A stretch of 64,000 bases of DNA, from NCBI GenBank assembly GCA_937922785.1, contig CALAJQ010000006.1, positions 122,156 to 186,155 on the forward strand. Reading direction: 5' to 3'. Both the position numbers and the translations under genes were made by a program. The DNA is from an uncultured Acidimicrobiales bacterium. GTDB taxonomy: Bacteria > Actinomycetota > Acidimicrobiia > Acidimicrobiales > SZUA-35. Below the pieces are notes generated by a model. It did no database searches. It was not told the origin of the DNA and was given only the letters and a program-made list of their open reading frames with translations. This document shows positions 4,140 through 58,886 of the stretch, piece by piece (position 1 is the stretch's first letter; each line of letters begins with the position of its first letter).

Positions 4140-6311
4140 ATGAGCGACAAATATATAGCAAGCGCCGGACTTCAAATTGGTGAGCCCCTGCATGACTTCA
4201 TAGTCAACGAGGCGCTGCCTGGATCGGGCGTTGATGCTTCGACTTTTTGGGATGGACTAGCGGGACTCCTTGCCGACTTCGGCCCCCGAAATGCCGAACT
4301 GCTAGAGACACGGGCCACGATTCAGGCGGCCATTAACGCGTTCCACAAGTCTGGAGAGCCATTCGACCAGGCTTCTTACCGAACCTTCCTGGAAGAGCTT
4401 GGGTACTTGGTGCCCGAGGGTCCCAATTTTGCTATCGAGACCACAGGGGTTGATCCAGAGGTGGCCTCGGTCCCCGGGGCTCAGCTGGTGGTGCCGGTGA
4501 TGAACGCCCGCTATGCCATCAATGCAGCGAATGCACGTTGGGGTTCGTTGTATGACGCTTTGTATGGAACCGACGCGATGGGAGACCTTCCAGAGCCAGG
4601 GCCCTACAACTCGGCTAGGGGAGAGAGAGTCATTGCGTGGTCAAAGAACTTCTTAGACTCAGCCATTCCCTTGAGCTCTGGCTCCCACGCAAATGTTGTC
4701 GGTTATTCAATTGTGAACGGTTCCTTAGCGGCCTCTACGGCTGAGGGCTCTGTTGCTGGCCTTGCTGACGCCGGAGCGCTAAAGGGATACCGGGGCAGTG
4801 AAGATGCACCCGAAGCATTGTTGTTCGAACATCACAGCCTCGGTGTTGAGCTGGTCATTGACCGCCAGCACAACGTCGGCTCCTCTGACCCCGCTGGTGT
4901 GGCCGATGTGATCTTGGAGTCTGCGGTCACTGCGATCATGGACTGTGAGGACTCGGTCGCCGCAGTTGACGCGCAAGACAAGGCGTTGGCCTATAGCAAC
5001 TGGCTTGGCCTGATGAAAGGCGATCTGGCTGTAGAAGTTTCGAAGGGTGCAACCTCCTTTACTCGCACGATGGCGCCAGATCGAACTTTCATAGCGGTTG
5101 GGGGTGGCGACGTTGTTGTGCCAGGTCGAGCCCTCATGTGGGTTCGCAATGTTGGTCACCTCATGACTACGCCGGCAGTCCTAGACAGCGACGGGAACGA
5201 GATGCCAGAAGGATTGCTAGACGCAATCATGACGGTGCTTTGTGCCAAGCACGACTTGAACAAGTCTGACGGTGACCGAAACTCTCGCCATGGCTCGGTG
5301 TATGTAGTCAAGCCCAAGATGCATGGCCCCGAAGAGGCTGCGTTTGCCGATGAGGTATTCAGTCGAGTCGAGGCATTGTTTGACCTCGCCCCAAACACGG
5401 TCAAGCTCGGCCTGATGGACGAAGAACGCCGGACCACTGTGAACCTGGCCGAATGCATCCGTGCGTTGAAATCTCGAATCGCCTTCATCAACACCGGTTT
5501 CTTAGACCGCACCGGCGACGAGATTCACACTTCCATGGAGGCTGGGCCAATGGTTCGCAAGGGCGACATGAAGGCTCAGCCTTGGATTGGTTCCTACGAA
5601 GACTGGAACGTTGACGTCGGCCTAGCTTGTGGTCTCCACGGGGTCGCCCAAATCGGCAAAGGGATGTGGGCAGCGCCGGACCTCATGGCCGACATGGTCG
5701 AGCAGAAGATAGGTCACCCTAAGAGCGGCGCCAACTGCGCCTGGGTCCCTTCTCCAACTGCTGCAACCCTGCACGCAACTCACTATCACCAGGTTGATGT
5801 GATGGAGGTCCAACGTGGCCTAATCGGGAACCGTCGCGCCAGTCTGGAAGACATCTTGCACATCCCGGTCGAGGCGAATCCAACGTGGACCGATGACGAG
5901 ATCCAGTCCGAAATTGAGAACAATGCCCAAGGCATTCTTGGGTACGTTGTGCGATGGGTAAACCAGGGCGTTGGCTGCTCCAAAGTTCCTGACATCAATG
6001 ACGTAGGGCTCATGGAAGACCGAGCAACATGTCGGATCTCCTCCCAGCACATGGCGAACTGGTTGCATCACGGCGTGATCTCCGAGGACCAGGTCCGGGC
6101 CGTCATGCAAAAAATGGCCGCAGTTGTCGATGGCCAAAACGCCGATGATCCTGAGTACACACCAATGGCGCCAGGTTTCGACGGTCAAGCCTTCGAAGCA
6201 GCACAAGCCCTGGTTCTGTCAGGCGTGGAGCAACCCTCGGGCTACACCGAACCAATCCTCCACGCCCGCCGCCGCCAACTGAAGGCCAACTCCAACGCCT
6301 CCAGTGATTAG
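4140..6311 (+). CDS. glcB: Malate synthase G
   Basis: 723 aa, the full-length size of the malate synthase G family. The N-terminus [28 protein letters not shown] is typical of GlcB. Confidence 0.9.
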
Positions 6312-6428: not shown

Positions 6429-7646
6429 GTGACGTCTGTGGAAGACGCGGCCCCGGCTGGACCGGAACCATTGGATCTTGACTTCACTGGGCAGGAGGCG
6501 ATTCCTGAAGCGGCGATCTCCAGGGCGAATGAGCTGATGTCGACCGGCAAACTCTTCCGCTATGGCGAGTCCAGTGCGGGCGAAGCCGATGCGGCGCTGC
6601 TTGAGGCCGAGTTTGCCCAGCTCGTCGGTAGTCGATACTGCGTTGCCCTAAATAGCTGCGGAGCGTCGCTGGCCGTGGCACTGATGGCGGCGGGTGTGCA
6701 GCGCGGCGACAAGGTGCTCATGAACGCTTTCACCCTCGCGCCCGTACCTGGTGCTGTCGCTCACGCCGGAGCAGACGCAGTGTTCGTGGGTATTAACGAG
6801 AGCTACCACATCGACCTGGACGATCTGCGCAGAGCTGCAACCGAGAGCGGGTCCAAGTGGCTGCTGCTGTCCTATATGCGCGGTCACATTCCCGATATGG
6901 ATCGCCTGCTGGAAGTATGCGAAGAATTCGACATCACGGTGATCGAAGACTGTGCGCACACGATGGGCGCCAGCTGGGACAACAAGCCGACAGGGACCTT
7001 TGGCATCGCCGGTTGTTTCAGCACTCAGTCGTTCAAGCATGTGAACTCTGGCGAAGGTGGACTGCTGGTCACCGATGATGAAGATCTTGCGGCGAAGGCA
7101 ATTTTGTTCTCCGGCTCATACATGCTTTATGGCCAACACGGTGCCCGACCTGCCGCTGAAGTGTTCGAGCGGCACCGCCTCTTGATTCCAAACTTCTCTA
7201 TGAGAATGAGTGCTCTAGCAGCTGCCCTGGTTAGACCTCAGCTAGCTGAGTTAGAGCGCCGGGCACAAGTTTGGAACGAGCGCTACGTCGAGTTGGCAAG
7301 CGCTCTTGGCGATCTGCCCCGGGTCACGGTGCCAGTCCGTGACGCTAAAGAGGGCTATGTCGCATCTTCAATTCAGTTCAGTGTTGACCATCCCGATGTA
7401 GCTGCCTTCGTCGAAACTGTGGCCCAATCGGGCGTCTTCTTGAAATGGTTTGGCGCTGACGAGCCACTGGGATTTACTAGCCGCTTTGACCACTGGCGCT
7501 ATCACTCTGAACAGCAGCTGACCAAAACCAGGCAGGTCCTTGCGGGCCTCATTGATATGCGAATTCCGTTAGCCATGACAAGCGAGCAGGCAGCACAGGT
7601 CGCTTCGATAGTCGGCAATGCTCTTACCGAATCAGCTTCTAGTTGA
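6429..7646 (+). CDS. DegT/DnrJ/EryC1/StrS-family PLP-dependent aminotransferase
   Basis: The NSCGASLAVALMAAG region and the S-F-K PLP-lysine motif (FSTQSFKHVNSGEGG). 405 aa. Its 3' end overlaps the convergent giant gene by 8 bp. Confidence 0.75.
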   Translation: MTSVEDAAPAGPEPLDLDFTGQEAIPEAAISRANELMSTGKLFRYGESSAGEADAALLEAEFAQLVGSRYCVALNSCGASLAVALMAAGVQRGDKVLMNAFTLAPVPGAVAHAGADAVFVGINESYHIDLDDLRRAATESGSKWLLLSYMRGHIPDMDRLLEVCEEFDITVIEDCAHTMGASWDNKPTGTFGIAGCFSTQSFKHVNSGEGGLLVTDDEDLAAKAILFSGSYMLYGQHGARPAAEVFERHRLLIPNFSMRMSALAAALVRPQLAELERRAQVWNERYVELASALGDLPRVTVPVRDAKEGYVASSIQFSVDHPDVAAFVETVAQSGVFLKWFGADEPLGFTSRFDHWRYHSEQQLTKTRQVLAGLIDMRIPLAMTSEQAAQVASIVGNALTESASS

Positions 7647-8638
7647 TCCAGACTCTTCCGGGTGAGCCGTCGTTTGCGGCGACGGCATCAAGCCTTGAAT
7701 CACCGTTTACGTCGCCCAATGCAATGCCCTCAGTCTTGCGATTGCTGAGGCTTTGGCCGGAGTCGGTGAAGACGCCGTTTCCGTTGTTTGTCCAGACTGA
7801 GTTTGCGTCCGTGTGGTCAGCAAGGAAAGCGTCTATGTCGCCATCGCCATCAATGTCCCCGAGGGCAACAGTGTGGGTGTGAGAGTTGCCAAGGGCCTGG
7901 CCCGTGTCGGTGAAGACGCCGTTTCCGTTGTTTAGCCACACGGTGTCTGAATCTGTGTCTTCGCCGAAGAGAATGTCCAGGTCTCCGTCGCCGTCGAGAT
8001 CAGCCAAGGCGACGTCGTGGGACTTGTTGCTGCCCAGAACCTGGCCGGAGTCGGTGAAGACTCCGCTGCCGTTGTTGAGCCAGACAGTGTTGTTTTCGTT
8101 CTCATGGGCATAGACAAGATCCAGGTCGCCGTCGCCATCGATGTCAGCAGTTGCGGCGGCGGTTGCCTTCTCAGCTCCCAGGTTTTGCCCGCTGTCGCTG
8201 AACGCTCCAAGGCCATTGTTTCGCCATATCTTGTTGTCGCCGTCCAGAACGCCAGTTGCAAGATCAAGATCGCCGTCTAGATCAAAGTCTCCAAGAACTA
8301 CATCAGCGGTGTCGTTGACTCCAAGGCTTTGGCCACTGTCGGAGAAAACACCGGACCCGTTGTTGATCCAGACTGTATCTGGGCCGTAGTTGGCGAATAC
8401 AACGTCTAAGTCGCCGTCTCCGTCGATATCGCCAAGCGCAACGCCGTCCGAATCGTCTGACCCAAGCGTTTGCCCGGAGTCGGTAAAGGATCCGGTGCCG
8501 TCGTTAAATTCAACCTTGTTACCATCGCCCCTACTGGCAAAGACCGCATCCAGGTCTCCGTCGCCGTCGATATCGCCGAGTGCTACTGCGAAGTTCTTAC
8601 CGGTTCCACCTACGCTCTGGCCAGAATCTACAAATGTG
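7639..8638 (-). repeat. Intragenic tandem array of 7 units of about 144 bp, encoding the FG-GAP blades of the giant protein
   Basis: Seven consecutive peptide repeats of 47-48 aa, '...VW(L/I)NNG(S/N)GVF(T/S)DSGQxLG....ALGDIDGDGDLD...', read from the translation. Many shadow ORFs appear on other frames in this region. Confidence 0.8.
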
Positions 8639-11619
8639 CCCGGTGAGGTCGCCGTTGGTGACGGGTCACAGACGTCGCCGATTCCGTCGCCATCAGTGTC
8701 TTCCTGAAGCGGATCGAAGTGATAAGGGCAAACATCTGACGTGGCTGGGATCGCGTCACCGTCTTGGGTTGGGTTGATGGTGACTGTGATTGTTGCGGTG
8801 TCGGTTGCGCCGCTGGGATCTTCGACGGTGTAGGTGAAGGAGTCCGACAGCGTCTGTGAGCCATCGTGGGTGTAAGTCATCGTTCCGTCGCCATTGTGGA
8901 CTACGGCGCCGTTTGTGCCGTTGGTTACCACCGTCACCACAAGCGCGTCACCCTCAACGTCGCTGTCATTCAACCTGACATCAATCGTCGTCGCTGAACC
9001 TCCACTGTCCACTGACAGAACGTCATTGCTAGCGGCAGGTGGGTCGTTCGCGGGAGCGACCGTAACTGTGACTGTTGCTGGGTCAGAGTCCTCGCCGGAG
9101 GAATCGGTCACGATGTAGGTAAACCAGTCAGACCCGTTTGTGTCTTGGTTTGGGGTGTAGGTGAATGTTCCGTCGCCGTTGGAAACAACGCTTCCTTTGG
9201 CCGCATCGGTGCCCAGCACAGCGGTTGAGGAGGCCACAGTTGTGTCCTCAATGTCGGTGTCATTATCGGTGACATCGGCGGTTGTAAATGCGACGTCTTC
9301 AGTTGTTCCGTACCCGGTTCCGGCGTCAGCGTTGGCTGAGGGCCGATCGTTGATAGGGCTTATCACCACCGTCACGGTTGCCGGCGCCGAGGTATTTCCG
9401 GCTGGATCAGAAACCGTGTATGTGAACGAGTCAGCGCCAAAGTAGTCGGCTGGAGGTGAATAGTTGATGGTTGAACCGACGTGAGTGATTGTCCCGCCTT
9501 GGTCTGAAGCTGCTTGCGGGTTCCAGGTCAAGGTTTGGTTCTCGGGGTCAGAATCGTTGGCTGCAAGGTTGAAACTTACTGGTGTGTCCTCGTCGGTTGC
9601 CGATGAGTCGTCGCCTGCAGTTGGGTCTTCATCGACGTCTGCAACCGTTACTGTTGCAGCAGCAACTACGTCGAAGTCAGCATCGGAAACAGTCACTTCG
9701 ATTGAGTACGAAGTCTGTGACTCGTGATCCAGGGCCGCGGCCACTTGGACCTGGCCTCCGGGCGTTATCGCAAATCGCCCGGTTGGATCGCCAGCAGTAA
9801 TGGCGAAACCAAGCGTGTCGCCGTCGACATCTGCAGAGGTGATTTGCAGCACGGCCTGTCCGACCGATACGTCCTCATCTATCGATGTGTCGGTAGCCGA
9901 TGCTGTCGGCGGATCGTTAATGGGAGTAACTGTTACGCGGAAGACTCCAGTGACCGACGGATTGAAGCCATCGGAGATTGTGTAGGTGACGTCTTCGCTG
10001 CCAAAGAAGTCCTGGTCTGGGACGTACTCAACCCAGCCCCCCTGGATGCTGGCGGTGCCATTGGGCGGGTTACCTACCGAGGTCACTGATAGCGAGTCTC
10101 CATCGGGATCTGTGTCGTTTGCGAGAACATCTTTCAGGACGCGGGCGTCCTCCACGATCGTCGATGAGTCATTGTTGGCCGTTGGTGCCTGGTTGACTAC
10201 AGGTGGCACTGTTGCAGGGGCGGCTGTGGTTGTGGTTGTCGGCTGGGTTGTTGTGGTTGAGGCCGGTGGCGCTGATGTGGATGGCTGAATTGTTGTCGTC
10301 GACTCGACAGTCGTAGTAGTTGGTCTAGTTGTGGGCACGATCGTTGTCACCGGTCCGACTGTTGTTGGTGGCACCGATAGCCCTGGACGGGTAGTTGTGG
10401 TCGTTAGTGGCGCAGCCATCGGCAACTCCTGAGCTACCGGTGGATCGACGGGCTGCCCGCTTACAGCCACCGTGACCAGTCCGACGACCGCAACCGCAGC
10501 GGACCAGGTGCTCGTCGCGACTACCGAGATAGTCGGCGCGGGGATCTGGGCAGATCCTGTTAGGTTCGCTAGCCACGCCCAGGGTCCGGCAACAGCCTGT
10601 AGACGACCCAGGCTGATCTGCAAAAACGCCCTAACCATCATTGGGTCAAATTGGGTTCCAGCGCATGCGGTCAATTCCTGGCGAGCCAGATCGGCACTGA
10701 GCGGCTTCTTATAGCTTCGAGCGCTTGTCATCACATCAAACGCATCGGCGATCGCAACCAGACGGCCGGCCACCGATATGTCTGAACCGGCTAGATCATC
10801 GGGGTATCCCTTACCATCCCATCGGCAGTGGTGCTGATCGGCAGCGTGAACCCATTCGCCAAGCCAAGGACGAAGGGGCTCCAACAGCGAACGTGACGCG
10901 GCTGGATGGCCTTGGAGAAGCTTCCACTCGTCATCAGTTGGCCTCCCATCTTTGTTCAGAATTTCTTTAGGGACGGTCAGTTTTCCGACATCGTGCAGGA
11001 GCGCTGACCAACGCAGAAGATTCATGTCGTGGTCGCCGAGACCCAACTCCTCACCCAACAGCTCCGAATAGGTTCGTACGCGCTCAGAATGGCCACGGGT
11101 GAGACGGTCGTGGTCGTTTACCTCGGCAAGCAACTGCACGAGGTAGTGGCCGTACAGCTCGGCTTTGGCTGAATCGCCGCTAAGTTTTGCAGCTTCGATC
11201 TCTCGAAGCATTTTCTTTGAGTTCGAGTTACGTAATGCTGCCTTGGTTCGCGACGGCGCGTTGTCGGGAAATACAAGTGTGAGCTTCATCAGAAGCACAA
11301 GGGGCATCAATCGTCTGCTCAACTTCGACAGAACATACAGAAGCAAGTTTGCGGCAACAAAGACACCGGCAACCCACAGCCACTTGTTGATTCCAAGCCT
11401 GTCCGGTGGAAAGGACCGACCCATCTGCCAGGTGAAAACGATGGATCCGAGGAGCGGCGCGAAAATGATCGTCGCTCTCAAAAGGCGGGCCAACCAAGGG
11501 CGCGAATGCCAGCGGTCCAACTTCGCCGAGTGTCGTTCAGCGCCCTGTGTCGGACCTCGCTCAGCCATTGAGGAATGCATCGACAAGATGGTGTCAGTTC
11601 TGGAGTTAGACCTGGCCAT
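7639..11619 (-). CDS. Giant membrane protein of 1326 aa. Predicted layout: N-terminus in the cytoplasm, TM1, TM2, a cytoplasmic HD-GYP phosphodiesterase domain, TM3, then an extracytoplasmic Thr/Pro-rich linker, about 5 cadherin/Ig-like roughly 95-aa repeats with DxDxDGD motifs, a TSP3-like Ca-binding motif and 7 FG-GAP repeats (beta-propeller)
   Basis: A single uninterrupted 3981-bp ORF. The HD domain is marked by HSERV...LLHDVGK, and the GYP signature by HHCRWDGKGYP. Hydrophobic segments fall at about residues 47-66, 79-97 and 364-388. Seven repeats of the form F(T/S)DSGQxLG....ALGDIDGDGDLD occupy the C-terminus. Confidence 0.85.
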   Translation of the reverse strand: MARSNSRTDTILSMHSSMAERGPTQGAERHSAKLDRWHSRPWLARLLRATIIFAPLLGSIVFTWQMGRSFPPDRLGINKWLWVAGVFVAANLLLYVLSKLSRRLMPLVLLMKLTLVFPDNAPSRTKAALRNSNSKKMLREIEAAKLSGDSAKAELYGHYLVQLLAEVNDHDRLTRGHSERVRTYSELLGEELGLGDHDMNLLRWSALLHDVGKLTVPKEILNKDGRPTDDEWKLLQGHPAASRSLLEPLRPWLGEWVHAADQHHCRWDGKGYPDDLAGSDISVAGRLVAIADAFDVMTSARSYKKPLSADLARQELTACAGTQFDPMMVRAFLQISLGRLQAVAGPWAWLANLTGSAQIPAPTISVVATSTWSAAVAVVGLVTVAVSGQPVDPPVAQELPMAAPLTTTTTRPGLSVPPTTVGPVTTIVPTTRPTTTTVESTTTIQPSTSAPPASTTTTQPTTTTTAAPATVPPVVNQAPTANNDSSTIVEDARVLKDVLANDTDPDGDSLSVTSVGNPPNGTASIQGGWVEYVPDQDFFGSEDVTYTISDGFNPSVTGVFRVTVTPINDPPTASATDTSIDEDVSVGQAVLQITSADVDGDTLGFAITAGDPTGRFAITPGGQVQVAAALDHESQTSYSIEVTVSDADFDVVAAATVTVADVDEDPTAGDDSSATDEDTPVSFNLAANDSDPENQTLTWNPQAASDQGGTITHVGSTINYSPPADYFGADSFTYTVSDPAGNTSAPATVTVVISPINDRPSANADAGTGYGTTEDVAFTTADVTDNDTDIEDTTVASSTAVLGTDAAKGSVVSNGDGTFTYTPNQDTNGSDWFTYIVTDSSGEDSDPATVTVTVAPANDPPAASNDVLSVDSGGSATTIDVRLNDSDVEGDALVVTVVTNGTNGAVVHNGDGTMTYTHDGSQTLSDSFTYTVEDPSGATDTATITVTINPTQDGDAIPATSDVCPYHFDPLQEDTDGDGIGDVCDPSPTATSPGTFVDSGQSVGGTGKNFAVALGDIDGDGDLDAVFASRGDGNKVEFNDGTGSFTDSGQTLGSDDSDGVALGDIDGDGDLDVVFANYGPDTVWINNGSGVFSDSGQSLGVNDTADVVLGDFDLDGDLDLATGVLDGDNKIWRNNGLGAFSDSGQNLGAEKATAAATADIDGDGDLDLVYAHENENNTVWLNNGSGVFTDSGQVLGSNKSHDVALADLDGDGDLDILFGEDTDSDTVWLNNGNGVFTDTGQALGNSHTHTVALGDIDGDGDIDAFLADHTDANSVWTNNGNGVFTDSGQSLSNRKTEGIALGDVNGDSRLDAVAANDGSPGRVWIN

Positions 11620-12862: not shown

Positions 12863-14329
12863 ATGGGATTATTGGATCGACTGCGCCCGGCCGAAAAGCA
12901 AGATCCACTGGTCAGCGACTTGGCTCGAGCTCTGGCGCCCGATCGAGTTCGTAACGACGGCGTGTCGCGATCGTTGCAGAGTCACGATGCTTCGGTCTTC
13001 GAAGGCGGCGTATCGGGTCCCGTTTGCTACCCAGTTTCGACCGCAGAGGTTGCGGCGATCATGAAGGTTGCCAAAAAACACAACCGAGGTGTGGTTCCTC
13101 GTGGGGCTGGCACAGGCCTGGCCGGGGGAGCGATTCCGTTGGGGGCTCCCGTTGTTGTAGCGCTCACTCGGATGAACAAGATTCTCGAGGTGGACATCGA
13201 GAATCGGATCGCCTGGGTAGAACCGGGTGTAGTCAACCTTGACCTAACCAAGCAGCTGACCCCGTTGGGTTTTCACTTCGCGCCGGATCCTTCAAGCCAA
13301 CAAGTCTGCACCATCGGCGGCAACGTCGCGAACAATTCGGGTGGCCCGCATTGCTTGGCTTATGGAGTTACCAACGCCCACGTCCAGGCGATTGAAGTGG
13401 TCCTAGCGGACGGCGAAGTTGTAACTCTTGGCGGACTGGATGCCGAACCACTTGGTCTTGATCTTCGAGGCGCATTCATAGGTGGCGAAGGCACGCTGGG
13501 TATCGCCACAAAGGTAGCTATCACCCTCACGCCAAACCCGCCAGCCGTCAAGACCTTGCTGTTGTCGTTCGACACGGTCGCAGCATCGGCCAATACCGTT
13601 TCCGCGGTGGTGGCCGCCGGAATTGTTCCCGCGGCGATGGAGGTAATGGATCAACGTTGCATAGAAGCGGTCGAAGCCTATGTGGGCGCCGGTTATCCGA
13701 TCGAAGCGGCCGCCGTGCTGCTCGCCGAGGTTGACGGGCTGGAACCAACAGTCGATGCCGACGCTGAAAAGATTGCGGCAATCGGACGAGAAAATGGTGC
13801 CACAAACGTTCGAATTGCAGAGTCTGAACAAGAACGAGAGTTACTTTGGAAGGGTCGTAAGACCGCCTTTGGGGCAGTGGCGGCCATTGCTCCGGACTAC
13901 TACCTACATGACACAGTCGTGCCTCGCTCGGCGCTCGCTGAGGTGCTCGAGAAGGTGTACGAAATAGCCGGGCGTTATGAGATCAAGGTAATGAACGTGT
14001 TCCACGCCGGCGATGGCAACCTGCACCCGCTCCTGATTTTCGACGCACGGGATGAAGGTGTTCTCGAACGGGTCCATGCTGCGGGCTCTGAGATCCTGCA
14101 CGCTTCGTTGGAAGCGGGCGGAGTGCTTTCAGGAGAGCACGGGATCGGTGTCGAGAAACAGCCGTTCATGGAGTTCATGTTTACCGACACTGATATGGAT
14201 CATCAGGGCAGGCTAAGAAGTGCTTTCGACCCAGCGTGTAGGTCCAATCCTGGGAAGGTTCTGCCTCTCGGTCATAGTTGCGCTGATATTCAATCCTTGC
14301 GCAGTGTGCCAGATGAGGTGTGGGGATGA
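12863..14329 (+). CDS. glcD: FAD-linked oxidase, a GlcD-like subunit of glycolate oxidase
   Basis: 488 aa FAD-binding PCMH-type oxidase. It is followed, with overlapping stop and start codons, by GlcE- and GlcF-like genes. Confidence 0.75.
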   Translation: MGLLDRLRPAEKQDPLVSDLARALAPDRVRNDGVSRSLQSHDASVFEGGVSGPVCYPVSTAEVAAIMKVAKKHNRGVVPRGAGTGLAGGAIPLGAPVVVALTRMNKILEVDIENRIAWVEPGVVNLDLTKQLTPLGFHFAPDPSSQQVCTIGGNVANNSGGPHCLAYGVTNAHVQAIEVVLADGEVVTLGGLDAEPLGLDLRGAFIGGEGTLGIATKVAITLTPNPPAVKTLLLSFDTVAASANTVSAVVAAGIVPAAMEVMDQRCIEAVEAYVGAGYPIEAAAVLLAEVDGLEPTVDADAEKIAAIGRENGATNVRIAESEQERELLWKGRKTAFGAVAAIAPDYYLHDTVVPRSALAEVLEKVYEIAGRYEIKVMNVFHAGDGNLHPLLIFDARDEGVLERVHAAGSEILHASLEAGGVLSGEHGIGVEKQPFMEFMFTDTDMDHQGRLRSAFDPACRSNPGKVLPLGHSCADIQSLRSVPDEVWG

Positions 14330-15249
14330 GTCCTGAAGTTACCGATCCAATCTTGGTTGACTTTGCGGCCGAGATCGGAGACTCGGGGCCTGTGACCATC
14401 GCTGGCTCCAAGACCCGTTGGGACACCGGTGGACCGCTGGTCGCTGGAACACGCGAGGTCAAGGCTCCAGCCGGCATTGTTGAATATCGACCGGAAGAAA
14501 TGACTGTCAGAGTTTTGGCCGGTACCGACGTTTCGGTGCTGGATCAAGTGCTAAGGAAGGCCGGACAACAGACAGCGTTGCCGAAACGTTCAGGAACAGT
14601 TGGGGGAGCATTGGCAGTTGGCGAGAACTGTCTGCCGACGCTAGGACGGGGTCGAATCAGGGCCAGCTTGCTTCAAGTCAAGTACGTGTCCGCGGACGGC
14701 CTGCTGGTTACTGGCGGTGGCACCACAGTGAAGAACGTCAGCGGGTTTGATCTGCCCCGACTGATGGTCGGATCGCTTGGCACCCTAGGTCTTTTCGGTG
14801 AGGTGCTTCTGCGGACCAACCCGACGCCCGAACTGTCGGTTCTGGCTCGGGCCGAGGATGCGGACCCGTTCCAAGTAATGGACGCACTACTTAAGCCCAA
14901 CATGATTCTCTGGGACGGCAAGGCCACATGGGTAGAGCTGATCGGCAATCAGTCCGCGGTAGAGGCCGAGGCAGACAAGCTAACCAAGATTGCTACATTC
15001 GCCGAAACGGTGATTCCTCCAAAGTTGCCGCCCCACCGCTGGTCTCTCACACCGGCCGAGCTGAGGAATGTCGCAGACCACGACACCGGTAGTTTCGTTG
15101 CCTCAATTGGCGTAGGAACACTATGGGGAACCAAACCGCAACCTGCTAGAACCCTCGATCGTGGGGTCGCAGTCTTACACGAACGTATGAAAGCTCAATT
15201 CGACCCGACCGGACGGCTTAACCCTGGCCGCACACCTGGAGTGCTCTGA
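14326..15249 (+). CDS. glcE: Glycolate oxidase FAD-binding subunit GlcE-like
   Basis: ATGA overlap with the glcD stop. FAD-binding-domain protein of about 308 aa. The track ORF begins at GTG 14320, but ATG 14326 is preferred. Confidence 0.7.
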   Translation: MSPEVTDPILVDFAAEIGDSGPVTIAGSKTRWDTGGPLVAGTREVKAPAGIVEYRPEEMTVRVLAGTDVSVLDQVLRKAGQQTALPKRSGTVGGALAVGENCLPTLGRGRIRASLLQVKYVSADGLLVTGGGTTVKNVSGFDLPRLMVGSLGTLGLFGEVLLRTNPTPELSVLARAEDADPFQVMDALLKPNMILWDGKATWVELIGNQSAVEAEADKLTKIATFAETVIPPKLPPHRWSLTPAELRNVADHDTGSFVASIGVGTLWGTKPQPARTLDRGVAVLHERMKAQFDPTGRLNPGRTPGVL

Positions 15250-16406
15250 TGGATCTCAAACTTGACGCAGATGATCTGAACCAGTGCGTTCAATGTGGCC
15301 TTTGCCTTCCGCATTGCCCAACCTTTCGGGTGACCGGTGACGAGTCAATGTCGCCACGGGGCCGAATCGCCTTGATGCGCGAAGTTCAAGACTCTGACGC
15401 TCCAATTACCCCTGAGGTTTTGGACTCTTTCGAAACCTGTGTTCAATGCCGGGGCTGCGAACCGGCATGTCCATCGGGTGTGAAGTACGGCCACCTAATG
15501 GAACAGACACGAGAGACGCTGGCTGATGCCGGCGAGATGACGCCCCTTTGGCAGCGGCTGGCGATGAAGCCACTGAGTCAGCCGAAAGTGCTCAGGGCCG
15601 GCACCGCCGCACTTTCAATAGCCAACAAGTACAACTTGGTGCCCAAGCGACTTGGTCTGCCCACAGAGATCGATCTGTCAGTTGAGGTGCTTGAGGCCTC
15701 AGGAAACGACGTGTACCTGTTCACTGGTTGCGTGATGGACCACTTGCAGCGTGAAGTTCACGAAGCGGGCAAGCTGGTTCTTGAAGCCGCCGGGTTTGGT
15801 GTGACCCCGACTAACGAAATGGCTCCATGTTGTGGTGCTCTGCAGGCACACGCTGGTTTGGTCGGCGAGACTCGCCAGTTGGCAAAAACCATGATGGGTA
15901 ACCTCAGAGGGGACACGCCCATATTGGTTGACTCTGCTGGATGTGGTGCAGCAATGAAGGACTACGGGCACCTGTTGGGCACCAAAGAGGCCAGGGTCTT
16001 TTCCGAACGGGTTTATGACATAAGTGAGTTTCTTGCGCTGCACGTTGGCAAATTGCCTGAAGCACCGCGTCTTGCCAAACGAGTTGCGGTGCAGGATCCG
16101 TGCCATCTGCGCCACGTTCAACGAGTTCACGAGGCCACACGCACCGTTCTTAGGCCTTTTGTGGAAGAACTCGTTGAGCTTGACGACGACGGCTTGTGTT
16201 GTGGTGCCGGCGGCGCGTATTCGGTGCTTCAACCAAAGCTTGCCGGCCAAATCAGAGATCGCAAAGTGGAGGCCATCGACCGAGTCGAACCTGACCTAGT
16301 GGCAAGTGCAAACCCTGGCTGTTCAATGCACCTAGCAAGTGCAGGCGTACCCACGATCCACCCGATGCAAATTATCTGGGGTCAAGTCTCAAAAGTAGCT
16401 AGGTAG
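15249..16406 (+). CDS. glcF: Glycolate oxidase iron-sulfur subunit GlcF-like
   Basis: Two 4Fe-4S ferredoxin-type Cys clusters (CVQCGLCLPHCP and CVQCRGCEPACP) and a C-terminal CCG domain with a CCGAGG motif. TGATG overlap with glcE. Confidence 0.8.
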   Translation: MDLKLDADDLNQCVQCGLCLPHCPTFRVTGDESMSPRGRIALMREVQDSDAPITPEVLDSFETCVQCRGCEPACPSGVKYGHLMEQTRETLADAGEMTPLWQRLAMKPLSQPKVLRAGTAALSIANKYNLVPKRLGLPTEIDLSVEVLEASGNDVYLFTGCVMDHLQREVHEAGKLVLEAAGFGVTPTNEMAPCCGALQAHAGLVGETRQLAKTMMGNLRGDTPILVDSAGCGAAMKDYGHLLGTKEARVFSERVYDISEFLALHVGKLPEAPRLAKRVAVQDPCHLRHVQRVHEATRTVLRPFVEELVELDDDGLCCGAGGAYSVLQPKLAGQIRDRKVEAIDRVEPDLVASANPGCSMHLASAGVPTIHPMQIIWGQVSKVAR

Positions 16407-26136: not shown

Positions 26137-29100
26137 TTAGGCGTCGCGGTGCTTGGGTGGGGGAGGCTGCTGGTTGGCTGCTTCGCGTTGACTGCGCGAT
26201 TCCGCAGCGGTTGATGCAAGCAAATCGATCGCCCGGGCTGCGATTGGCTCCTGCACCGACAAGGCCTCGGCGACCTGTTCGATAGCAGCAACTACTCGGG
26301 TGGCCGGGTCGGTTTCGTCTCCGCCGAGGCGTTGCTTACGCCTGAAGGTGGTGAGGATGTCGTTCCAGCGTTGAGTTTGCTCGGTATCAAGCGTGCCGCG
26401 CAGCTCACCGAGTTTCAGCAGGTTGGACTCTGCGTCGGCCGTAAGCGCTTGTGATTCGGCCACGTAGTGATCGGTGACGACCTCGGCCACCTCGGATTCA
26501 GTCATAGCTGGCACGAGCTTGGAGGCCATGCGAGCCATGTTGCGGTAGGAACCTTGCAACAAGAACGGAGGCTCCACTCGATAGTCGTCGTCGGTTGCAG
26601 CTGACGCGATGTACTGACGGTTCACCGACAGCACGGCCTCTTGAACTTGTTTGAGATGGGCCAGAGTTTGAACAATCTCGTTTGTTTCCGCTGTTGAGTA
26701 TGAGCTAGACAACGCCGACTCGGCTAAGGGCTCGCCCGCTGCAGCTTTGAGGAACGCTGCAAACTCTTCCGGAGCGGCACCAGCCAGTGGTGTCAACGCA
26801 GGGTTAGCGGTGAGTGCGTTCTCCAAGTAGCTGCTGGCGAACACGTCTTCGTCACCGGTTGAGACATCACCCAAGTTGTAGGTGTCGGCTCGGTTGGCCA
26901 ACATGTCGGGCACTCGGAACCGCTCACCTGACTCTGTGTAAGGGTTGCCCGCCATGACAACAGCAAACCGCTTGCCGCGAAGGTCGAACGTCCTGGACTG
27001 TCCGTTCCAAACACCTTCGATCCGCCGTTGGCCATCACATAGCGAAATGAAGCGCTGAAGGAATTCAGGGTTGGTGTGCTGGATGTCGTCGAGGTACAGG
27101 ATGACGTTGGTGCCAACAGCAAACGCGAGGTTGATCCGTTCGATCTCCCGAGCTGCTGTGGCCGATGGGGCTTGGGCTGGATCAAGAGATGTCGCGTCGT
27201 GACCTAGGCCAGGTCCAGAGACTTTCACTAAGGCCATGCCAAGACGGTCGGCCAAATATTCGACCAAGGTTGTCTTGCCGTAGCCCGGAGGCGACAGCAG
27301 CATAAGCAATCCAGAGCGAGCTCCGGCGGTGTCGTTGACGGTGCCGATCTGTCGGGCCAAGTTGTCACCGATTAGTGGCAGGTAAACCTTGTCGATTAGC
27401 TGATTGCGAACAAAACCTTCGGGGACCCGAGGCTCAAGATCGTCAATACGCAGGCGGTTCCGAAGGTCTGCCAGGGCGCCTCGACGAGCAGCCCCGAACT
27501 GGCGATGTTTGTCGACCACCTCGTCGAGATGCTGGGCTACTTGTGCGAAGAGGTCATCGATGCGTCCGCTAAGAACACCGGAAGTCATCGTTGGGTGCTG
27601 GCCAGCAAGACCAGTCACTTCGAACTCAAGCTGGGCAGTCAGCAGCCGGCGAGGTAGGTCTGGCAACAACAGGGCTGCTACGACTTCTTCGACCAAGTGA
27701 AGCTCGGTTTTCGCTACTGACCTGCGTACATAGTCGCTCAGAAGTACCCGAGCGCCGTCGGGGTCCTCGGCCAACCGCTGAAGCGCCTTTGACACTGCTG
27801 AGTCCTTGGCCAGCTGGCGACTAAGTCGTTGTGCGTCAGTCTGCTCAGCGAAACCCAAGCCGGCGGGCTGGGTCAGTTCAGAGACGAGATAGCGAGCCTG
27901 AGCGTGGGTGACACCAAGGTCGCTCGCCAGTTCGGTAGCCATCGCTGAGGCGGTCAGTGGCGATACATCAAGCCCTCGGGCGGCAGCGCCCCGGCCCACC
28001 CAGCGTGCTTTCAGACCCGAGTCAGGATGTAGTGCCCAGCTGATTTGGGCGGCCGCCCTGACTGGCCCGGCAACCAATAGCGTGTCTGCCGATAGTGCGA
28101 GCTGACCGATCACGGCCGCGATGGAAGCTGCGTCTACGTCGTGGACGCCGCGGTCATAGCCCTCATCCAAGCGCCGGTCAGCTTCGATGCGGACTTGCTC
28201 AAGCATTCGAGCATCGTCCTCCAGCAGCTGCCGAAGGGCGTCGGGGTCATCAAGGTGGCTCAGAATAATGTCGGCCGCAAGAAAGGTTGACCGGTACAAG
28301 TCTGGGGTTTCTGATGCCAACGGTTGGGACCAAAGGTCGCGGTGGCTGTCGAGTTCCGGTGAGTCGATTGGAAGGCGAAGATCGGTGCCGGTAAGGACCG
28401 CCTCTAGGTGTTCCTCGCCAGGAACAATGGTTAGTTCGCGGGTTCTGGAGTCGACGCTGAATCGATGGCGGCCAAGTTTGATGGCGTCGCCCTCGTAAAG
28501 ATCCTGGCGGTCGCGAAGCGCTCGCGCCGCTTCGTCGCGCATCGAGCCAAGCTGTGCCTGGACCTCGTCGGCCCGTACTGGCTCGCCAAGAGTTCTGAGG
28601 TCTTCAACGAGAGTTCGAACTCGAGCAACCATTGCGTCAGCGGCAAAGAAGCCGTTGATCTCATCAATCGATTCCAAGCCCGAGGCACGGTCGCTGATGC
28701 GGCCCAGGGTTCGGTTCGAAGCCGACACGAGGCGTTCAGCCTTCTGTTGACGAGCATCGACCAGTTGTTGGCGCTTGCCCGCAAGAGCCTCTGTTACCTG
28801 ATCTCGCCGTTTTGTGATTTCATCAAGCTGGGATTCAGTGCGAGGTCCAGCCGTCTCAATCTGCTCAAGTTGCAACATGAGCCGAGCCATTGAATCGTCA
28901 CATTGCTCGGGCGTTGACGCACGACCGACCGCGGTGGCGATTGATTGGCCGAACAGGCCAAGCTCGGTGGCAAAGGCTGCTCCGGTCTCGGATTGAACAA
29001 GATCGTTTAGCTTGTTCTCAACGCCCACCCTGGTGCGGTTCAGCTCGGCTAGGACGCCGCTTACTTGTTCAAGAACTGCAGTGCGAACTCGGGGGTCGTC

Positions 29101-58200: not shown

Positions 58201-58886
58201 CAGAAAACCAGCACGTCACCGTTGCCTTCAAGTTCTAGCTCATTCACCGCATCAACGATTCCTTCGGTCTGGCTGATTGCGGACTCGGTGGCCGGATCGA
58301 TCAGAGGTCGATAACGAACTTCTACAGGGAAGGTTCGACCTGAGACTTCGATGATTGGGGCGTCGTTGAAGTGTTGGGAAAACCGGTCGGTGTCGATTGT
58401 GGCCGAGGTGATGATGACCTTGAGGTCAGGACGGCGGGGGAGGATCTGATGGATGTAGCCAAGCAGGAAGTCAATATTGAGGCTGCGCTCGTGGGCCTCA
58501 TCGATTATCAAAGTCGAGTACTTCTTTAACAGCCGGTCGTGCTGCATCTCGGCAAGAAGAATGCCATCGGTCATTGCCTTGATTGCAGTCTTGTTTGAGA
58601 CCTTGTCAGTAAAGCGAACCTTGTAGCCGACGATGCCGCCAACTTCATCGTCTAACTCTTCGGCAACGCGTTCGGCGATTGATCGTGCTGCGATGCGGCG
58701 CGGCTGGGTGTGGCCGATCCAGCCTTGTTCGTGAAGGTCAAGATCCAAACACATCTTTGGTAGCTGGGTGCTCTTGCCCGACCCGGTCTCACCGGCAACG
58801 ACGATGACCTGGTTGTCCCTGATCGCGGCGAGAAGCTCTTCCTTGCGCTCTGCGATCGGAAGATCGGGCGGATAGGTAACTTTCAC
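55206..58886 (-). CDS. hrpA: ATP-dependent RNA helicase HrpA (DEAH-box)
   Basis: GETGSGKST Walker A, DEAH box (IIDEAHERS), HA2 and OB domains, and a long C-terminal region. 1226 aa. Confidence 0.9.
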   Translation of the reverse strand: MKVTYPPDLPIAERKEELLAAIRDNQVIVVAGETGSGKSTQLPKMCLDLDLHEQGWIGHTQPRRIAARSIAERVAEELDDEVGGIVGYKVRFTDKVSNKTAIKAMTDGILLAEMQHDRLLKKYSTLIIDEAHERSLNIDFLLGYIHQILPRRPDLKVIITSATIDTDRFSQHFNDAPIIEVSGRTFPVEVRYRPLIDPATESAISQTEGIVDAVNELELEGNGDVLVFCSGEREIREATDALGEARLRNTEVVPLFGRLSAAEQHRVFDRKKGGNRRIVVATNVAETSLTVPGIRYVVDAGTARISRYSNKTKVQRLPIEDVSQASANQRSGRCGRVAPGIAIRLYTEDNYNDRPEFTEPEITRTNLASVILQMASLGLGNIEQFPFVDPPELRNIRDGIALLEELDAVQPEYVDTKRWLTPIGKQVARLPIDPRFARMVIDAADNGCLHEVMVITAAMTVQDPRERPREKREEAGQLHARFNEPGSDFLAWLNLWEYIEDERQALSNNQFRKMCRREFLNYNRIREWWDIVRQLERTAKQLHWTINTKQAHADTVHRSLLTGLLSQIGLKDTSSNEFTGGRQARFIFGRSSVLAKKPPNWVMAGELIETNRLWAHSGARINPDWVEQAGEHVIKRSYDEPYWDAERGSAMCVERASLYGVPLVAGRRIHYRNVDPEVARELFIHNALIEGEWETHHAFFSQNEGVLGEIRRMGQRQRRDLVVEYEVLFKFYDTHIGGNVTSGTDFDKWWNKRRKKEPRLLDLKLDDLIDPAVLEFEDESFPEVWEAGELELEVDYEFATGSANDGVTVIVPVALLDHVDPTDFEWNVPGLREEIVTALLRSMPKALRKTFLPIPQTVAAILPGLAEGKGRLVEAVRRELRNYGGKPIPADALVLDRLPPHLRPIFQVVSESGDVLARNRNIGEIRTQLAGEVRDVLAETEHDLLSTGQRDWTFGTLPRTVPTTAAGQKVDAFPALVDEGKTVGVQLLADKNAQYQSMWAGTTRLLRMNIGGSARMLNDLFDDEATLALATSPQGSKLEWVNDASDAIFAQLLDDCGGLVWNQADWNALAAKVRSGLPAAVATYGSQAIEILKLAQGLRSDLGRAVPTSLHPAYKDMIAQLNRLVYPGHLAAVGAHRLADIVRYLKGIRIRVDKMGGKTNRDTQRMRKCQRLEAQLDEFVDTLSPSRALEDLNWLLEEFRIASFAQELKTKTKVSEERINALMAEL

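What the first reader, a model, noticed from the sequence alone, without database searches (positions are those of the whole stretch)
7639..11619. HD-GYP c-di-GMP phosphodiesterase embedded in a three-TM protein with a giant adhesin-like ectodomain
A single 3981-bp ORF encodes the following, in order:
- about 45 cytoplasmic residues
- TM1, a short loop, and TM2
- a complete HD-GYP domain (HD residues plus the signature HHCRWDGKGYP)
- TM3
- a roughly 90-aa Thr/Pro-rich stalk
- about five cadherin/Ig-like repeats of roughly 95 aa with DxDxDGD calcium-type motifs
- a thrombospondin-type-3-like motif (CPYHFDPLQEDTDGDGIGDVCD)
- seven FG-GAP repeats, consistent with an integrin-alpha-like seven-bladed propeller

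The hydrophobic segments place the HD-GYP domain in the cytoplasm and the 940-aa repeat region outside the cell. HD-GYP proteins normally carry N-terminal sensor domains. A C-terminal extracellular cadherin/FG-GAP module of this size is an unusual receptor-like layout. It suggests outside-in control of c-di-GMP turnover by cell-cell or cell-matrix contact. Alternatively the phosphodiesterase could be anchored at an adhesion site.
Basis: partly seen in the sequence, partly recalled or inferred. Interest (0 to 1): 0.75.

Follow-up and report, generated by a model that had tools for sequence, protein, structure and literature searches.

The report
Membrane HD-GYP phosphodiesterase with surface ectodomain
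[quoted passage not shown] It belongs to a very large family in uncultured Actinomycetota that the papers I could search do not describe.

Summary
One uninterrupted 1326-codon ORF lies on the minus strand (7639-11619). It encodes TM1-TM2, a complete HD-GYP domain, TM3, a Thr/Pro stalk, five tandem-95/cadherin-like Ig repeats, one TSP3 motif and a seven-bladed FG-GAP propeller.

It is not a frameshift artefact. 111 of the 120 best database hits, many on long contigs from independent assemblies, share the same TM-TM-HD-GYP-TM module followed by a large C-terminal region.

All HD-GYP metal ligands, the GYP motif and the c-di-GMP-contacting residues are invariant in 97 relatives. Hydropathy, the positive-inside rule and the nature of the C-terminal domains place HD-GYP in the cytoplasm and the repeats outside.

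The layout is not rare. At least 575 loci in species genomes and more than 2400 protein clusters carry the module, mainly Acidimicrobiia, plus Gaiellaceae/Thermoleophilia and Kineosporiaceae. Several genomes hold multiple paralogues, and the ectodomains are interchangeable: Ig-like, LTD, He_PIG, PKD, NHL, pentapeptide, FG-GAP. There are no conserved gene neighbours.

A constant output with variable ectodomains fits a receptor-type phosphodiesterase best. The direction of signalling is inferred, not shown. The main HD-GYP census and my paper searches do not mention this inverted architecture. I rate it a new variant of a known kind.

The parts
7639..11619 (-). Whole ORF: 1326 codons plus stop at 7639-7641. 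Alternative start at Met18 (window 11568).
11485..11619 (-). aa 1-45: basic cytoplasmic N-terminal tail. Conservation begins at aa 22 (GPTQGAERH); W37 is invariant.
11428..11484 (-). aa 46-64: TM1 (P55 invariant)
   Evidence: helix in the AF2 model
11383..11427 (-). aa 65-79: short extracytoplasmic loop between TM1 and TM2
11326..11382 (-). aa 80-98: TM2 (W82 conserved)
11245..11325 (-). aa 99-125: basic juxtamembrane segment with the family-invariant motif PLxxLxKLxLVFPDxAPxR. Its role is unknown; it may transmit the signal to the catalytic domain.
   Evidence: low pLDDT
10612..11121 (-). aa 167-336: HD-GYP catalytic domain. Metal ligands H177, H209-D210, H238, H263-H264, D292. Motif HHCRWDGKGYP with G271-Y272-P273. 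Nucleotide contacts K223/G225 and R301-x-Y303-K304.
10462..10530 (-). aa 364-386: TM3, a signal-anchor that exports the C-terminal region. It is preceded by the invariant G345-P346 and a short amphipathic stretch.
10195..10461 (-). aa 387-475: Thr/Pro-rich stalk (29 T and 18 P in 89 residues), a presumed wall-spanning linker
8746..10194 (-). aa 476-958: five tandem-95 / Big_9 / cadherin-like Ig repeats
8650..8745 (-). aa 959-990: single thrombospondin type-3-like calcium motif with a cysteine pair (C964, C984)
7642..8634 (-). aa 996-1326: seven FG-GAP/VCBS repeats forming a seven-bladed beta-propeller. This is the C-terminus of the protein.

Best explanation
The gene encodes a receptor-type cyclic-di-GMP phosphodiesterase of an uncultured Acidimicrobiales-like actinobacterium.

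Shown:
- It is one intact gene.
- Its first ~375 residues form a conserved module: a TM1-TM2 hairpin, a conserved juxtamembrane motif, a complete HD-GYP domain and TM3.
- The module is shared by thousands of proteins.
- All catalytic and nucleotide-contact residues are invariant.
- The residue that would bind a third metal is never acidic, which places the domain in the binuclear class.
- The C-terminal 940 residues consist only of domain types known from secreted or surface proteins.

Inferred from sequence (strong):
- The N-terminus and HD-GYP are cytoplasmic. TM3 exports the rest.
- The Thr/Pro stalk and five Ig-like repeats carry the calcium-binding propeller through and beyond the cell wall of a single-membrane (monoderm) cell.

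Inferred (moderate):
- The enzyme cleaves c-di-GMP to pGpG.
- The state of the ectodomain (ligand, glycan or calcium binding, contact, or pulling force on the stalk) passes through TM3 into the last HD-GYP helix, and through the TM1-TM2 hairpin and juxtamembrane motif into the first. This changes activity, probably within a dimer.
- Paralogues with other ectodomains would feed different external cues into the same second-messenger pool.
For: Single gene, not an artefact:
- 111 of the 120 best hits carry the same module aligned to query residues 18-395, followed by a long C-terminal region. They include proteins on contigs of 224 kb to 1.35 Mb from independent assemblies.

Catalytic competence:
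- H177, H209, D210, H238, H263, H264, D292, G271-Y272-P273, K213, R301, Y303 and K304 are 100% conserved in 97 members. K223 and G225 are conserved in 93 of 97.
- The best solved relatives are active HD-GYPs: V-cGAP3 5z7c (4.6e-36), PmGH 4mcw (1.9e-30) and PA4781 4r8z (3.3e-28).
- The AF2 model matches PA4781, PmGH and DvhD by Foldseek.
- The PmGH E185 equivalent is L/M/K/V/A and never D or E.
- The roles of these residues are taken from Galperin & Chou.

Topology:
- Exactly three TM-grade segments.
- Averaged over 97 members, K+R versus D+E is 4.0/2.5 in the N-terminal tail, 4.4/1.1 after TM2, 2.0/0.24 before TM3 and 0.55/4.3 after TM3.
- The C-terminal part has a Thr/Pro stalk, calcium loops and a cysteine pair.

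Sensor-like modularity:
- With the N-terminal module alone as query, the top 150 of 1.84 billion representatives all span TM1 to TM3 (E below 1e-93). Their lengths run from 287 to 2576 aa.
- C-terminal parts include Big_9/cadherin-like, LTD, He_PIG, PKD, NHL/SGL propeller, pentapeptide repeats and FG-GAP.
- Paralogues within one genome carry different ectodomains.
- No neighbouring gene is conserved; the best neighbour cluster occurs in 5 of 80 loci. The protein therefore appears self-contained.

Propeller:
- The TSP3-plus-seven-blade unit is conserved as a block at the extreme C-terminus in at least 32 relatives.
- The closest folds are CRTAC1, LGI1 EPTP, fungal GlcNAc-binding lectins and integrin alpha heads, all of which are extracellular ligand binders.
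- Blade-specific residues H1247, H1269 and E1297 are invariant across orthologues.
Against: - No activity, topology or ligand has been measured for any member.
- AF2 could not place TM3 or the juxtamembrane motif (pLDDT below 50), so the proposed transmission path has no structural support.
- Large repetitive Ig-like ectodomains are typical of adhesins rather than small-molecule sensors.
- Many members have only short C-terminal extensions with no recognised domain.
- No diguanylate cyclase gene lies in the 64-kb window. One GGDEF ORF was seen in a related locus (L048). c-di-GMP synthesis in this organism is therefore assumed.
- The best PDB sequence match is a cGAMP-specific enzyme, so substrate identity is not settled.
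Confidence: 0.55

Rival explanations
1. Locally anchored phosphodiesterase or enzymatic anchor. The ectodomain is simply an adhesin or wall-associated fibre. The 3TM-HD-GYP module tethers it to the membrane and keeps c-di-GMP constitutively low at the attachment site. There is no allosteric coupling across the membrane.
For: The ectodomain parts are classic fibrillar-adhesin modules: tandem-95/Big_9 repeats, a match to BapA/LapF-type adhesins and CshA repeats in relatives. Close relatives of the repeat region occur in ordinary signal-peptide adhesins that lack HD-GYP (9 of 120 hits). The propeller is a generic VCBS/FG-GAP module found in thousands of secreted proteins.
Against: A three-TM module with invariant juxtamembrane motifs on both sides of the catalytic domain is more than tethering needs. 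The module is kept constant while ectodomains are swapped and paralogues multiply. That is the pattern of sensor families.
Confidence: 0.2
2. Inside-out control. Binding or turnover of c-di-GMP at the HD-GYP domain changes the conformation, clustering or exposure of the ectodomain, so the messenger level sets adhesiveness. This would be functionally analogous to LapD and DvhD, or to integrin inside-out activation.
For: A membrane HD-GYP protein (DvhD) has been shown to act as a c-di-GMP-dependent switch controlling adhesin retention (PMC13090378). Its HD-GYP domain is among the structural matches. The nucleotide-contact residues are intact here.
Against: DvhD has lost its metal ligands (HD replaced by SQ, HH by MN) and cannot hydrolyse c-di-GMP. 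Here every metal ligand is invariant in 97 members, which argues for selection on catalysis. No LapG/DvhG-like protease or other partner is conserved next to the gene.
Confidence: 0.15
3. Same architecture, different substrate. The domain hydrolyses 3'3'-cGAMP or only pGpG rather than c-di-GMP.
For: The best solved sequence relative is V-cGAP3, a cGAMP-specific HD-GYP. Some HD-GYPs hydrolyse cGAMP (Galperin & Chou).
Against: The RxYK pair is invariant here, and its alteration is the route Galperin & Chou discuss for cGAMP preference. By structure the closest match is the c-di-GMP enzyme PA4781.
Confidence: 0.08
4. Assembly or frameshift artefact that fuses an HD-GYP gene to a separate surface-protein gene.
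For: Some related loci from long-read metagenome assemblies do show the gene split into overlapping frames (L008, L013, L051, L068). Errors of this kind therefore exist in the data.
Against: The window ORF is uninterrupted for 3981 nt. The same fusion occurs in 111 of 120 top hits from many independent assemblies. TM3 and the stalk connect the two halves in register across all of them. The split versions are interruptions of a single gene, not evidence for two ancestral genes.
Confidence: 0.01

Closest known systems
Catalytic HD-GYP c-di-GMP phosphodiesterases of the binuclear class (PA4781 of Pseudomonas aeruginosa, PDB 4r8z; also PmGH 4mcw and V-cGAP3 5z7c)
   Same: Same catalytic domain. 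All metal ligands, the GYP motif, the K-x-G contacts and the RxYK motif are present. The predicted fold matches. As in PA4781, there is no acidic residue at the PmGH E185 position.
   Different: Those enzymes are soluble, with N-terminal REC or other sensor domains and HD-GYP at the C-terminus. Here HD-GYP sits between transmembrane helices near the N-terminus, and the presumed input domain is C-terminal and outside the cell.
HD-GYP proteins with extracytoplasmic or membrane sensor domains (dCache-, PBPb- and CHASE2-HD-GYP; MASE9-HD-GYP such as Streptomyces HdgA)
   Same: One-component membrane proteins in which an extracytoplasmic or membrane domain is expected to control HD-GYP activity (Galperin & Chou). 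HdgA is the actinobacterial example (6TM-HD-GYP; PMC6205966).
   Different: In all of these the sensor is N-terminal, between or within TM helices, and HD-GYP is the C-terminal output. The sensors are small ligand-binding domains, not roughly 940-residue repeat ectodomains. According to the census, none with an extracytoplasmic sensor had been characterised experimentally.
DvhD / LapD adhesin-control receptors
   Same: Inner-membrane c-di-GMP-binding proteins that link messenger level to large repeat adhesins. DvhD uses an HD-GYP domain.
   Different: DvhD and LapD are catalytically dead receptors that regulate a separate adhesin through a periplasmic protease encoded nearby. Here the active site is intact, the adhesin-like part is in the same polypeptide, and no partner gene is conserved.
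Actinobacterial receptor Ser/Thr kinases (PknD with an NHL beta-propeller, PknB with PASTA repeats). This comparison rests on my own knowledge and was not tested here.
   Same: Same overall plan: an N-terminal cytoplasmic catalytic domain, a transmembrane helix and a C-terminal extracellular sensor that can be a beta-propeller. Multiple paralogues carry different ectodomains in the same phylum. Some family members even carry NHL/SGL propellers.
   Different: The output is a phosphodiesterase rather than a kinase. The module has three TM helices rather than one. There is no sequence relationship.
FG-GAP / integrin-alpha-type seven-bladed propellers (CRTAC1, fungal PVL-type lectins, integrin alpha heads) and bacterial VCBS-repeat proteins
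   Same: Seven FG-GAP repeats with DxDxDGDxD calcium loops. The predicted fold is closest to CRTAC1 (E 5e-15, TM-score 0.75 over the query), with lectins and integrin alpha subunits also matching.
   Different: It is not an integrin. It has no thigh or calf domains, no beta-subunit partner and no inserted I domain. The propeller is at the C-terminal tip rather than the N-terminus.

Membership tests
HD-GYP domain (class II c-di-GMP phosphodiesterase) | Metal-ligand set H...HD...H...HH...D | tested here: met
   H177, H209-D210, H238, H263-H264 and D292 align to the PmGH ligands and are invariant in 97 relatives.
HD-GYP domain (class II c-di-GMP phosphodiesterase) | GYP motif within HHExxDGxGYP | tested here: met
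   HHCRWDGKGYP at aa 263-273. G271, Y272 and P273 are 100% conserved. Position 265 is Cys in 40 of 97 members and Glu in 45 of 97.
HD-GYP domain (class II c-di-GMP phosphodiesterase) | c-di-GMP-contact residues: the K-P-G motif and the RxY[K/R] motif (Galperin & Chou) | tested here: met
   K223 and G225 are conserved in 93 of 97 members. R301, Y303 and K304 are conserved in all 97.
HD-GYP domain (class II c-di-GMP phosphodiesterase) | HD-GYP fold | tested here: met
   In the AF2 model the domain has pLDDT mostly 83-96. Foldseek top hits are 4r8z, 4mcw and 9rbz (E 8e-10 to 6e-08).
HD-GYP domain (class II c-di-GMP phosphodiesterase) | Hydrolysis of c-di-GMP | not testable with these tools
   This needs an enzyme assay.
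Trinuclear HD-GYP subgroup (PmGH type; hydrolyses through to GMP) | Acidic residue at the PmGH E185 position to bind the third metal | tested here: not met
   L173 here. Across the family the position is L 75, M 16, K 2, V 1, A 1 of the 95 residues aligned there among 97 members, and never D or E. It is filed in the binuclear subgroup.
Canonical sensor-HD-GYP architecture | N-terminal sensor or receiver domain with HD-GYP as the C-terminal output | tested here: not met
   HD-GYP lies at aa 167-336 of 1326. About 940 residues follow TM3. The census text describes HD-GYP as typically C-terminal.
MASE9-HD-GYP (Streptomyces HdgA type) | N-terminal integral-membrane sensor domain: annotated 6TM in HdgA, described as 8 TM segments for MASE9 | tested here: not met
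   There are only two TM helices before the domain and one after it.
LapD/DvhD-type c-di-GMP receptors | Degenerate, non-catalytic nucleotide-binding domain, plus a partner periplasmic protease and adhesin operon | tested here: not met
   The active site is intact. The neighbours are an rRNA methyltransferase, a sugar aminotransferase, malate synthase and glycolate oxidase. No neighbour is conserved across 80 loci.
Tandem-95 / Big_9 bacterial Ig-like (cadherin-like) repeats | Repeated units of about 95 aa that score above the curated cut-offs | tested here: met
   NF012211 scores 219 bits against a cut-off of 90, in 5 stretches. Big_9 scores 218 bits against 23.6.
FG-GAP / VCBS seven-bladed beta-propeller | Seven FG-GAP repeats with calcium-loop motifs that fold into a closed propeller | tested here: met
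   FG-GAP_3 has 7 stretches. There are seven DxDxDGDxD-type loops. The AF2 model has 28 strands and pTM 0.88. Foldseek matches CRTAC1, lectins and integrin alpha.
Integrin alpha subunit | Propeller followed by thigh and calf domains, a C-terminal TM helix and a heterodimeric beta subunit | tested here: not met
   The propeller is at the extreme C-terminus. No thigh- or calf-like domains were found. The resemblance is limited to the propeller.
Thrombospondin type-3 repeat | A Dx[DN]xDGxxDxxD calcium motif flanked by cysteines that scores above the Pfam cut-off | tested here: met
   PF02412 scores 28.4 bits against 25 on the isolated aa 940-998 segment. It is a single copy, and C964, C984 and the aspartates are invariant in 14 orthologues.

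The most novel reading that the evidence does not exclude
Acidimicrobiia and related Actinomycetota have evolved their own expanded class of cell-surface receptors. A constant 3TM-HD-GYP engine is driven by interchangeable, wall-spanning ectodomains. The cadherin-like stalk plus integrin-like propeller version acts as a contact, force or glycan sensor that converts attachment directly into a drop in c-di-GMP. It would be a bacterial analogue of adhesion-receptor signalling in one polypeptide, and the first mechanism for extracellular control of an HD-GYP enzyme.
Probability: 0.3. Interest if true: 0.8.

Novelty: new variant of a known kind. Interest (0 to 1): 0.6.

Why it matters
HD-GYP enzymes are the less understood of the two c-di-GMP phosphodiesterase classes. 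According to the main census, no HD-GYP linked to an extracytoplasmic sensor had been characterised experimentally.

This family offers thousands of natural variants with one conserved transmembrane output module and many different ectodomains. That makes it a ready-made system for asking how an external event is transmitted to an HD-GYP active site.

It also points to c-di-GMP signalling, surface sensing and adhesion in Acidimicrobiia. These bacteria are abundant in waters and soils, mostly uncultured, and their signalling is largely unknown.

Automated annotation labels these proteins 'Ig-like domain-containing' or 'tandem-95 repeat' proteins, which hides the enzyme. Giving the N-terminal module its own family model would correct thousands of annotations.

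Tried and rejected
- Frameshift or chimera: rejected, because the fusion is conserved.
- A fourth TM helix in aa 345-362, which would flip the ectodomain inside: rejected. The segment scores 9.85 against at most 3.0 for the three real helices. The charge distribution also argues against it.
- Conserved operon partners (cyclase, protease, sortase, glycosyltransferase): none. The best neighbour cluster occurs in 5 of 80 loci. The window's own neighbours are not syntenic with related loci.
- GGDEF genes in the window: none.
- Exact look-up of the protein's contig and its source names gave nothing. The organism is therefore inferred only from relatives.
- A profile search with the propeller, looking for the same ectodomain on other signalling outputs such as kinases or cyclases: uninformative. 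The list was swamped by generic VCBS/FG-GAP proteins.
- AF2 of the N-terminal module, to see how TM3 packs against TM1 and TM2: confidence in those parts was too low.
- The promoter and terminator scan found nothing above the shuffled expectation.
- Literature searches for HD-GYP combined with Acidimicrobiia, FG-GAP, cadherin-like/Ig-like, Big_9/HD_5 and extracellular/C-terminal found no description of this architecture.
- Proximity of the blade-specific His/His/Glu residues could not be checked, because model coordinates are not exposed to scripts.
Full report
**Observation.** The window holds a 3981-nt ORF at 7639-11619, but on the minus strand. Translation gives a 1326-aa protein.
- HD_5 (aa 167-326, E 1.8e-32) and HD.
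- Five Big_9 / Cadherin_4 / Cadherin_5 / tandem-95 repeats.
- Seven FG-GAP_3 stretches.
- The thrombospondin type-3 motif passes Pfam's cut-off when its segment is scanned alone.
- A self-profile places the Ig-like repeats at about 476-574, 578-669, 680-763, 778-864 and 876-958.
- The stalk (aa 387-475) has 29 Thr and 18 Pro in 89 residues.
- Seven DxDxDGDxD-type loops mark the blades.

Only three segments are hydrophobic enough to span a membrane: aa 46-64, 80-98 and 364-386. The probable true start is Met18 (window 11568). Most homologues begin there and conservation starts at GPTQGAERH. Neither candidate ATG has a clear ribosome-binding site.

**Is it one gene?** Yes. A full-length search of 5.8 billion proteins returned 120 top hits. 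Of these, 111 carry the same N-terminal module aligned to query residues 18-395, followed by hundreds to about 1900 further residues. Several lie on contigs of 224 kb to 1.35 Mb from independent assemblies. Some related loci from long-read assemblies have the gene broken into overlapping frames. That is an error in the opposite direction.

**The catalytic domain.** The domain aligns with three solved, active HD-GYP enzymes: V-cGAP3, PmGH and PA4781. The AF2 model of the module matches PA4781, PmGH and DvhD by Foldseek. In an alignment of 97 family members the following are invariant or nearly so:
- the metal ligands H177, H209-D210, H238, H263-H264 and D292;
- the GYP motif;
- K213;
- the K223/G225 pair;
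- the R301-x-Y303-K304 motif.

Galperin & Chou describe these as the metal-binding and c-di-GMP-binding residues. The residue matching PmGH E185, which binds a third metal and correlates with hydrolysis through to GMP, is Leu here and never acidic in the family. That places the domain in the binuclear class, with pGpG as the expected product. This contrasts with DvhD, the HD-GYP-based c-di-GMP receptor. DvhD has lost its HD and HH ligands and cannot hydrolyse the nucleotide.

**Topology.** Averaged over 97 members, K+R versus D+E is as follows:

| Region | K+R | D+E |
|---|---|---|
| N-terminal tail | 4.0 | 2.5 |
| After TM2 | 4.4 | 1.1 |
| Before TM3 | 2.0 | 0.24 |
| After TM3 | 0.55 | 4.3 |

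This is the positive-inside pattern for N-in, HD-GYP-in, C-out. The moderately hydrophobic stretch at aa 345-362 is far from TM grade. The C-terminal part consists of a Thr/Pro linker, calcium-binding repeats and a cysteine pair (C964, C984), all typical of exported proteins. I could not run a trained topology predictor, so this is a strong inference and not a measurement.

**The ectodomain.** An AF2 model of aa 946-1326, built on 14 orthologues, is confident (pLDDT 86.6, pTM 0.88). It has 28 strands, which is seven four-stranded blades. The closest solved folds are CRTAC1, the LGI1 EPTP domain, fungal GlcNAc-binding PVL-type lectins and integrin alpha heads. The TSP3-plus-propeller unit is conserved as a block at the very C-terminus of at least 32 relatives. 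Besides the repeat consensus, blades 5-7 carry residues that are invariant across orthologues but specific to one blade: H1247, H1269 and E1297. This hints at a defined binding site. The propeller as such is a generic secreted module found across many phyla.

**The family.** This is the main new finding.
- With only the N-terminal 383 residues as query against 1.84 billion representatives, the 150 best hits (all E below 1e-93) cover TM1 through TM3. Their lengths run from 287 to 2576 aa.
- A profile of the module finds at least 2475 clusters at E ≤ 1e-40.
- Almost all of the 80 loci kept (all metagenome-assembled genomes) are labelled Acidimicrobiales/Acidimicrobiia (including Ilumatobacteraceae and Microthrix) or generically Actinomycetota/Actinomycetes, with a few Gaiellaceae/Thermoleophilia and one Kineosporiaceae.
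- The module is constant at 45-70% identity. It includes an invariant juxtamembrane motif after TM2 (PLxxLxKLxLVFPDxAPxR) and an invariant Gly-Pro before TM3.
- What follows TM3 varies: Big_9/cadherin-like repeats, lamin-tail domains, He_PIG, PKD, NHL/SGL propellers, pentapeptide repeats, FG-GAP propellers, or stretches with no known domain.
- FG-GAP is confined to the subfamily closest to the window protein: 40 of 111 in the first search, against 1 of 120 in the unbiased set.
- Single genomes hold several paralogues with different ectodomains, sometimes in tandem.
- No neighbouring gene is conserved. In the window the flanking genes are housekeeping: an RlmG/RsmC-like methyltransferase upstream, a convergent sugar aminotransferase overlapping by 8 nt, malate synthase G and glycolate oxidase.

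**Mechanism.** A constant enzymatic output joined to a variable extracytoplasmic domain, multiplied into paralogues and needing no partner genes, is the signature of one-component receptors. From my own knowledge, it mirrors the plan of actinobacterial receptor Ser/Thr kinases such as PknD: an N-terminal catalytic domain, a TM helix and a C-terminal propeller.

I therefore favour a receptor-type phosphodiesterase (confidence about 0.55). The ectodomain, held beyond the wall by the Thr/Pro linker and five Ig-like repeats, changes state on binding, contact or tension. TM3 leads straight out of the last HD-GYP helix. The TM1-TM2 hairpin, with its invariant juxtamembrane motif, leads into the first. 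Together they would transmit that change to the active site.

Shown: gene integrity, domain content, conservation of catalytic residues, and family modularity. Inferred: topology (strong), substrate and product (moderate), and direction of signalling (moderate to weak).

Rivals, each with its test listed in the report sections:
- a constitutive, locally anchored enzyme or adhesin anchor (0.2);
- inside-out control of adhesiveness (0.15);
- a different dinucleotide substrate (0.08);
- an assembly artefact (0.01).

**Comparison and novelty.**
- The catalytic domain is a bona fide member of the HD-GYP family, binuclear subgroup.
- The architecture fails the canonical 'N-terminal sensor, C-terminal HD-GYP' layout.
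- It is neither MASE9-HD-GYP like Streptomyces HdgA nor LapD/DvhD-like.
- The HD-GYP census does not mention this layout in its text. It states that no HD-GYP with an extracytoplasmic sensor had been characterised. Its Table 3 is an image I could not read.
- Six further paper searches found nothing.
- Public records name these proteins only generically.

I rate it a new variant of a known kind. The parts are ordinary, the arrangement and the family are apparently undescribed, and the function is testable.

**Verdict.**
- Observation: confirmed.
- Interpretation: partly supported.
- Interest: 0.6.
- The protein is not unique to this genome, which lowers surprise at the level of this locus.
- The size and modularity of the family raise its value as a system for studying transmembrane control of c-di-GMP turnover.

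Noticed in passing
window 26137-32975 (minus strand): A 1630-aa ORF has an N-terminal DUF3686 ('ATPase involved in DNA repair', E 2e-149), DUF7902 and a C-terminal AAA domain. Directly upstream lies an overlapping 649-aa ORF with no Pfam or NCBIfam match. This looks like a large two-gene unit of unknown function.
   Followed up: partly
window 4140-6311 and 12863-16406: Malate synthase G lies on one side of the HD-GYP gene and a glycolate oxidase-like set (FAD oxidase, FAD-binding subunit, Fe-S/CCG subunit) on the other. This suggests a glycolate-utilisation neighbourhood interrupted by the receptor gene and a methyltransferase.
   Followed up: no
window 7639-7646: The 3' end of the HD-GYP gene overlaps the 3' end of the convergent DegT/DnrJ-type sugar aminotransferase gene (6429-7646) by 8 nt. 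That leaves no room for a terminator between them.
   Followed up: no
window 11245-11325 (aa 99-125): The juxtamembrane motif PLxxLxKLxLVFPDxAPxR is almost invariant across 97 family members, yet AF2 predicts it with very low confidence. I know of no counterpart.
   Followed up: partly
window 10825-10827 (aa 265): The canonical HHE of the HHExxDGxGYP motif is HHC here and in 40 of 97 relatives. The significance of a cysteine next to the metal ligands is unknown; redox sensitivity is one possibility.
   Followed up: no
L008, L013, L051, L068: In several long-read metagenome-assembled genomes the orthologous gene is split into overlapping ORFs in different frames. These are most likely homopolymer or indel assembly errors. 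Such loci will be mis-annotated as separate HD-GYP and Ig-like genes.
   Followed up: partly
L023, L024, L042, L057: Two family members lie on the same strand in each locus. They are directly adjacent in L023 and L042 (a short one followed by a long one with Big_9 and LTD domains) and 2.6-5.8 kb apart in L024 and L057. The adjacent pairs indicate local duplication with divergence of the ectodomain.
   Followed up: partly
L019; also protein P0398: Two family members sit in bins labelled beta-proteobacterium or Burkholderiales, while essentially all others are Actinomycetota. This may reflect mis-binning or mislabelling rather than true occurrence.
   Followed up: no
window 55206-58886 (minus strand): An HrpA-like DEAH-box helicase with DUF3418 (1226 aa). 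It is ordinary and is noted only because it is the other very large ORF in the window.
   Followed up: no
window 7764-7777 and 7908-7921: An identical 24-nt stretch recurs 144 nt apart (one FG-GAP repeat period) within the propeller-coding region. Adjacent blades are therefore still similar at the DNA level.
   Followed up: no
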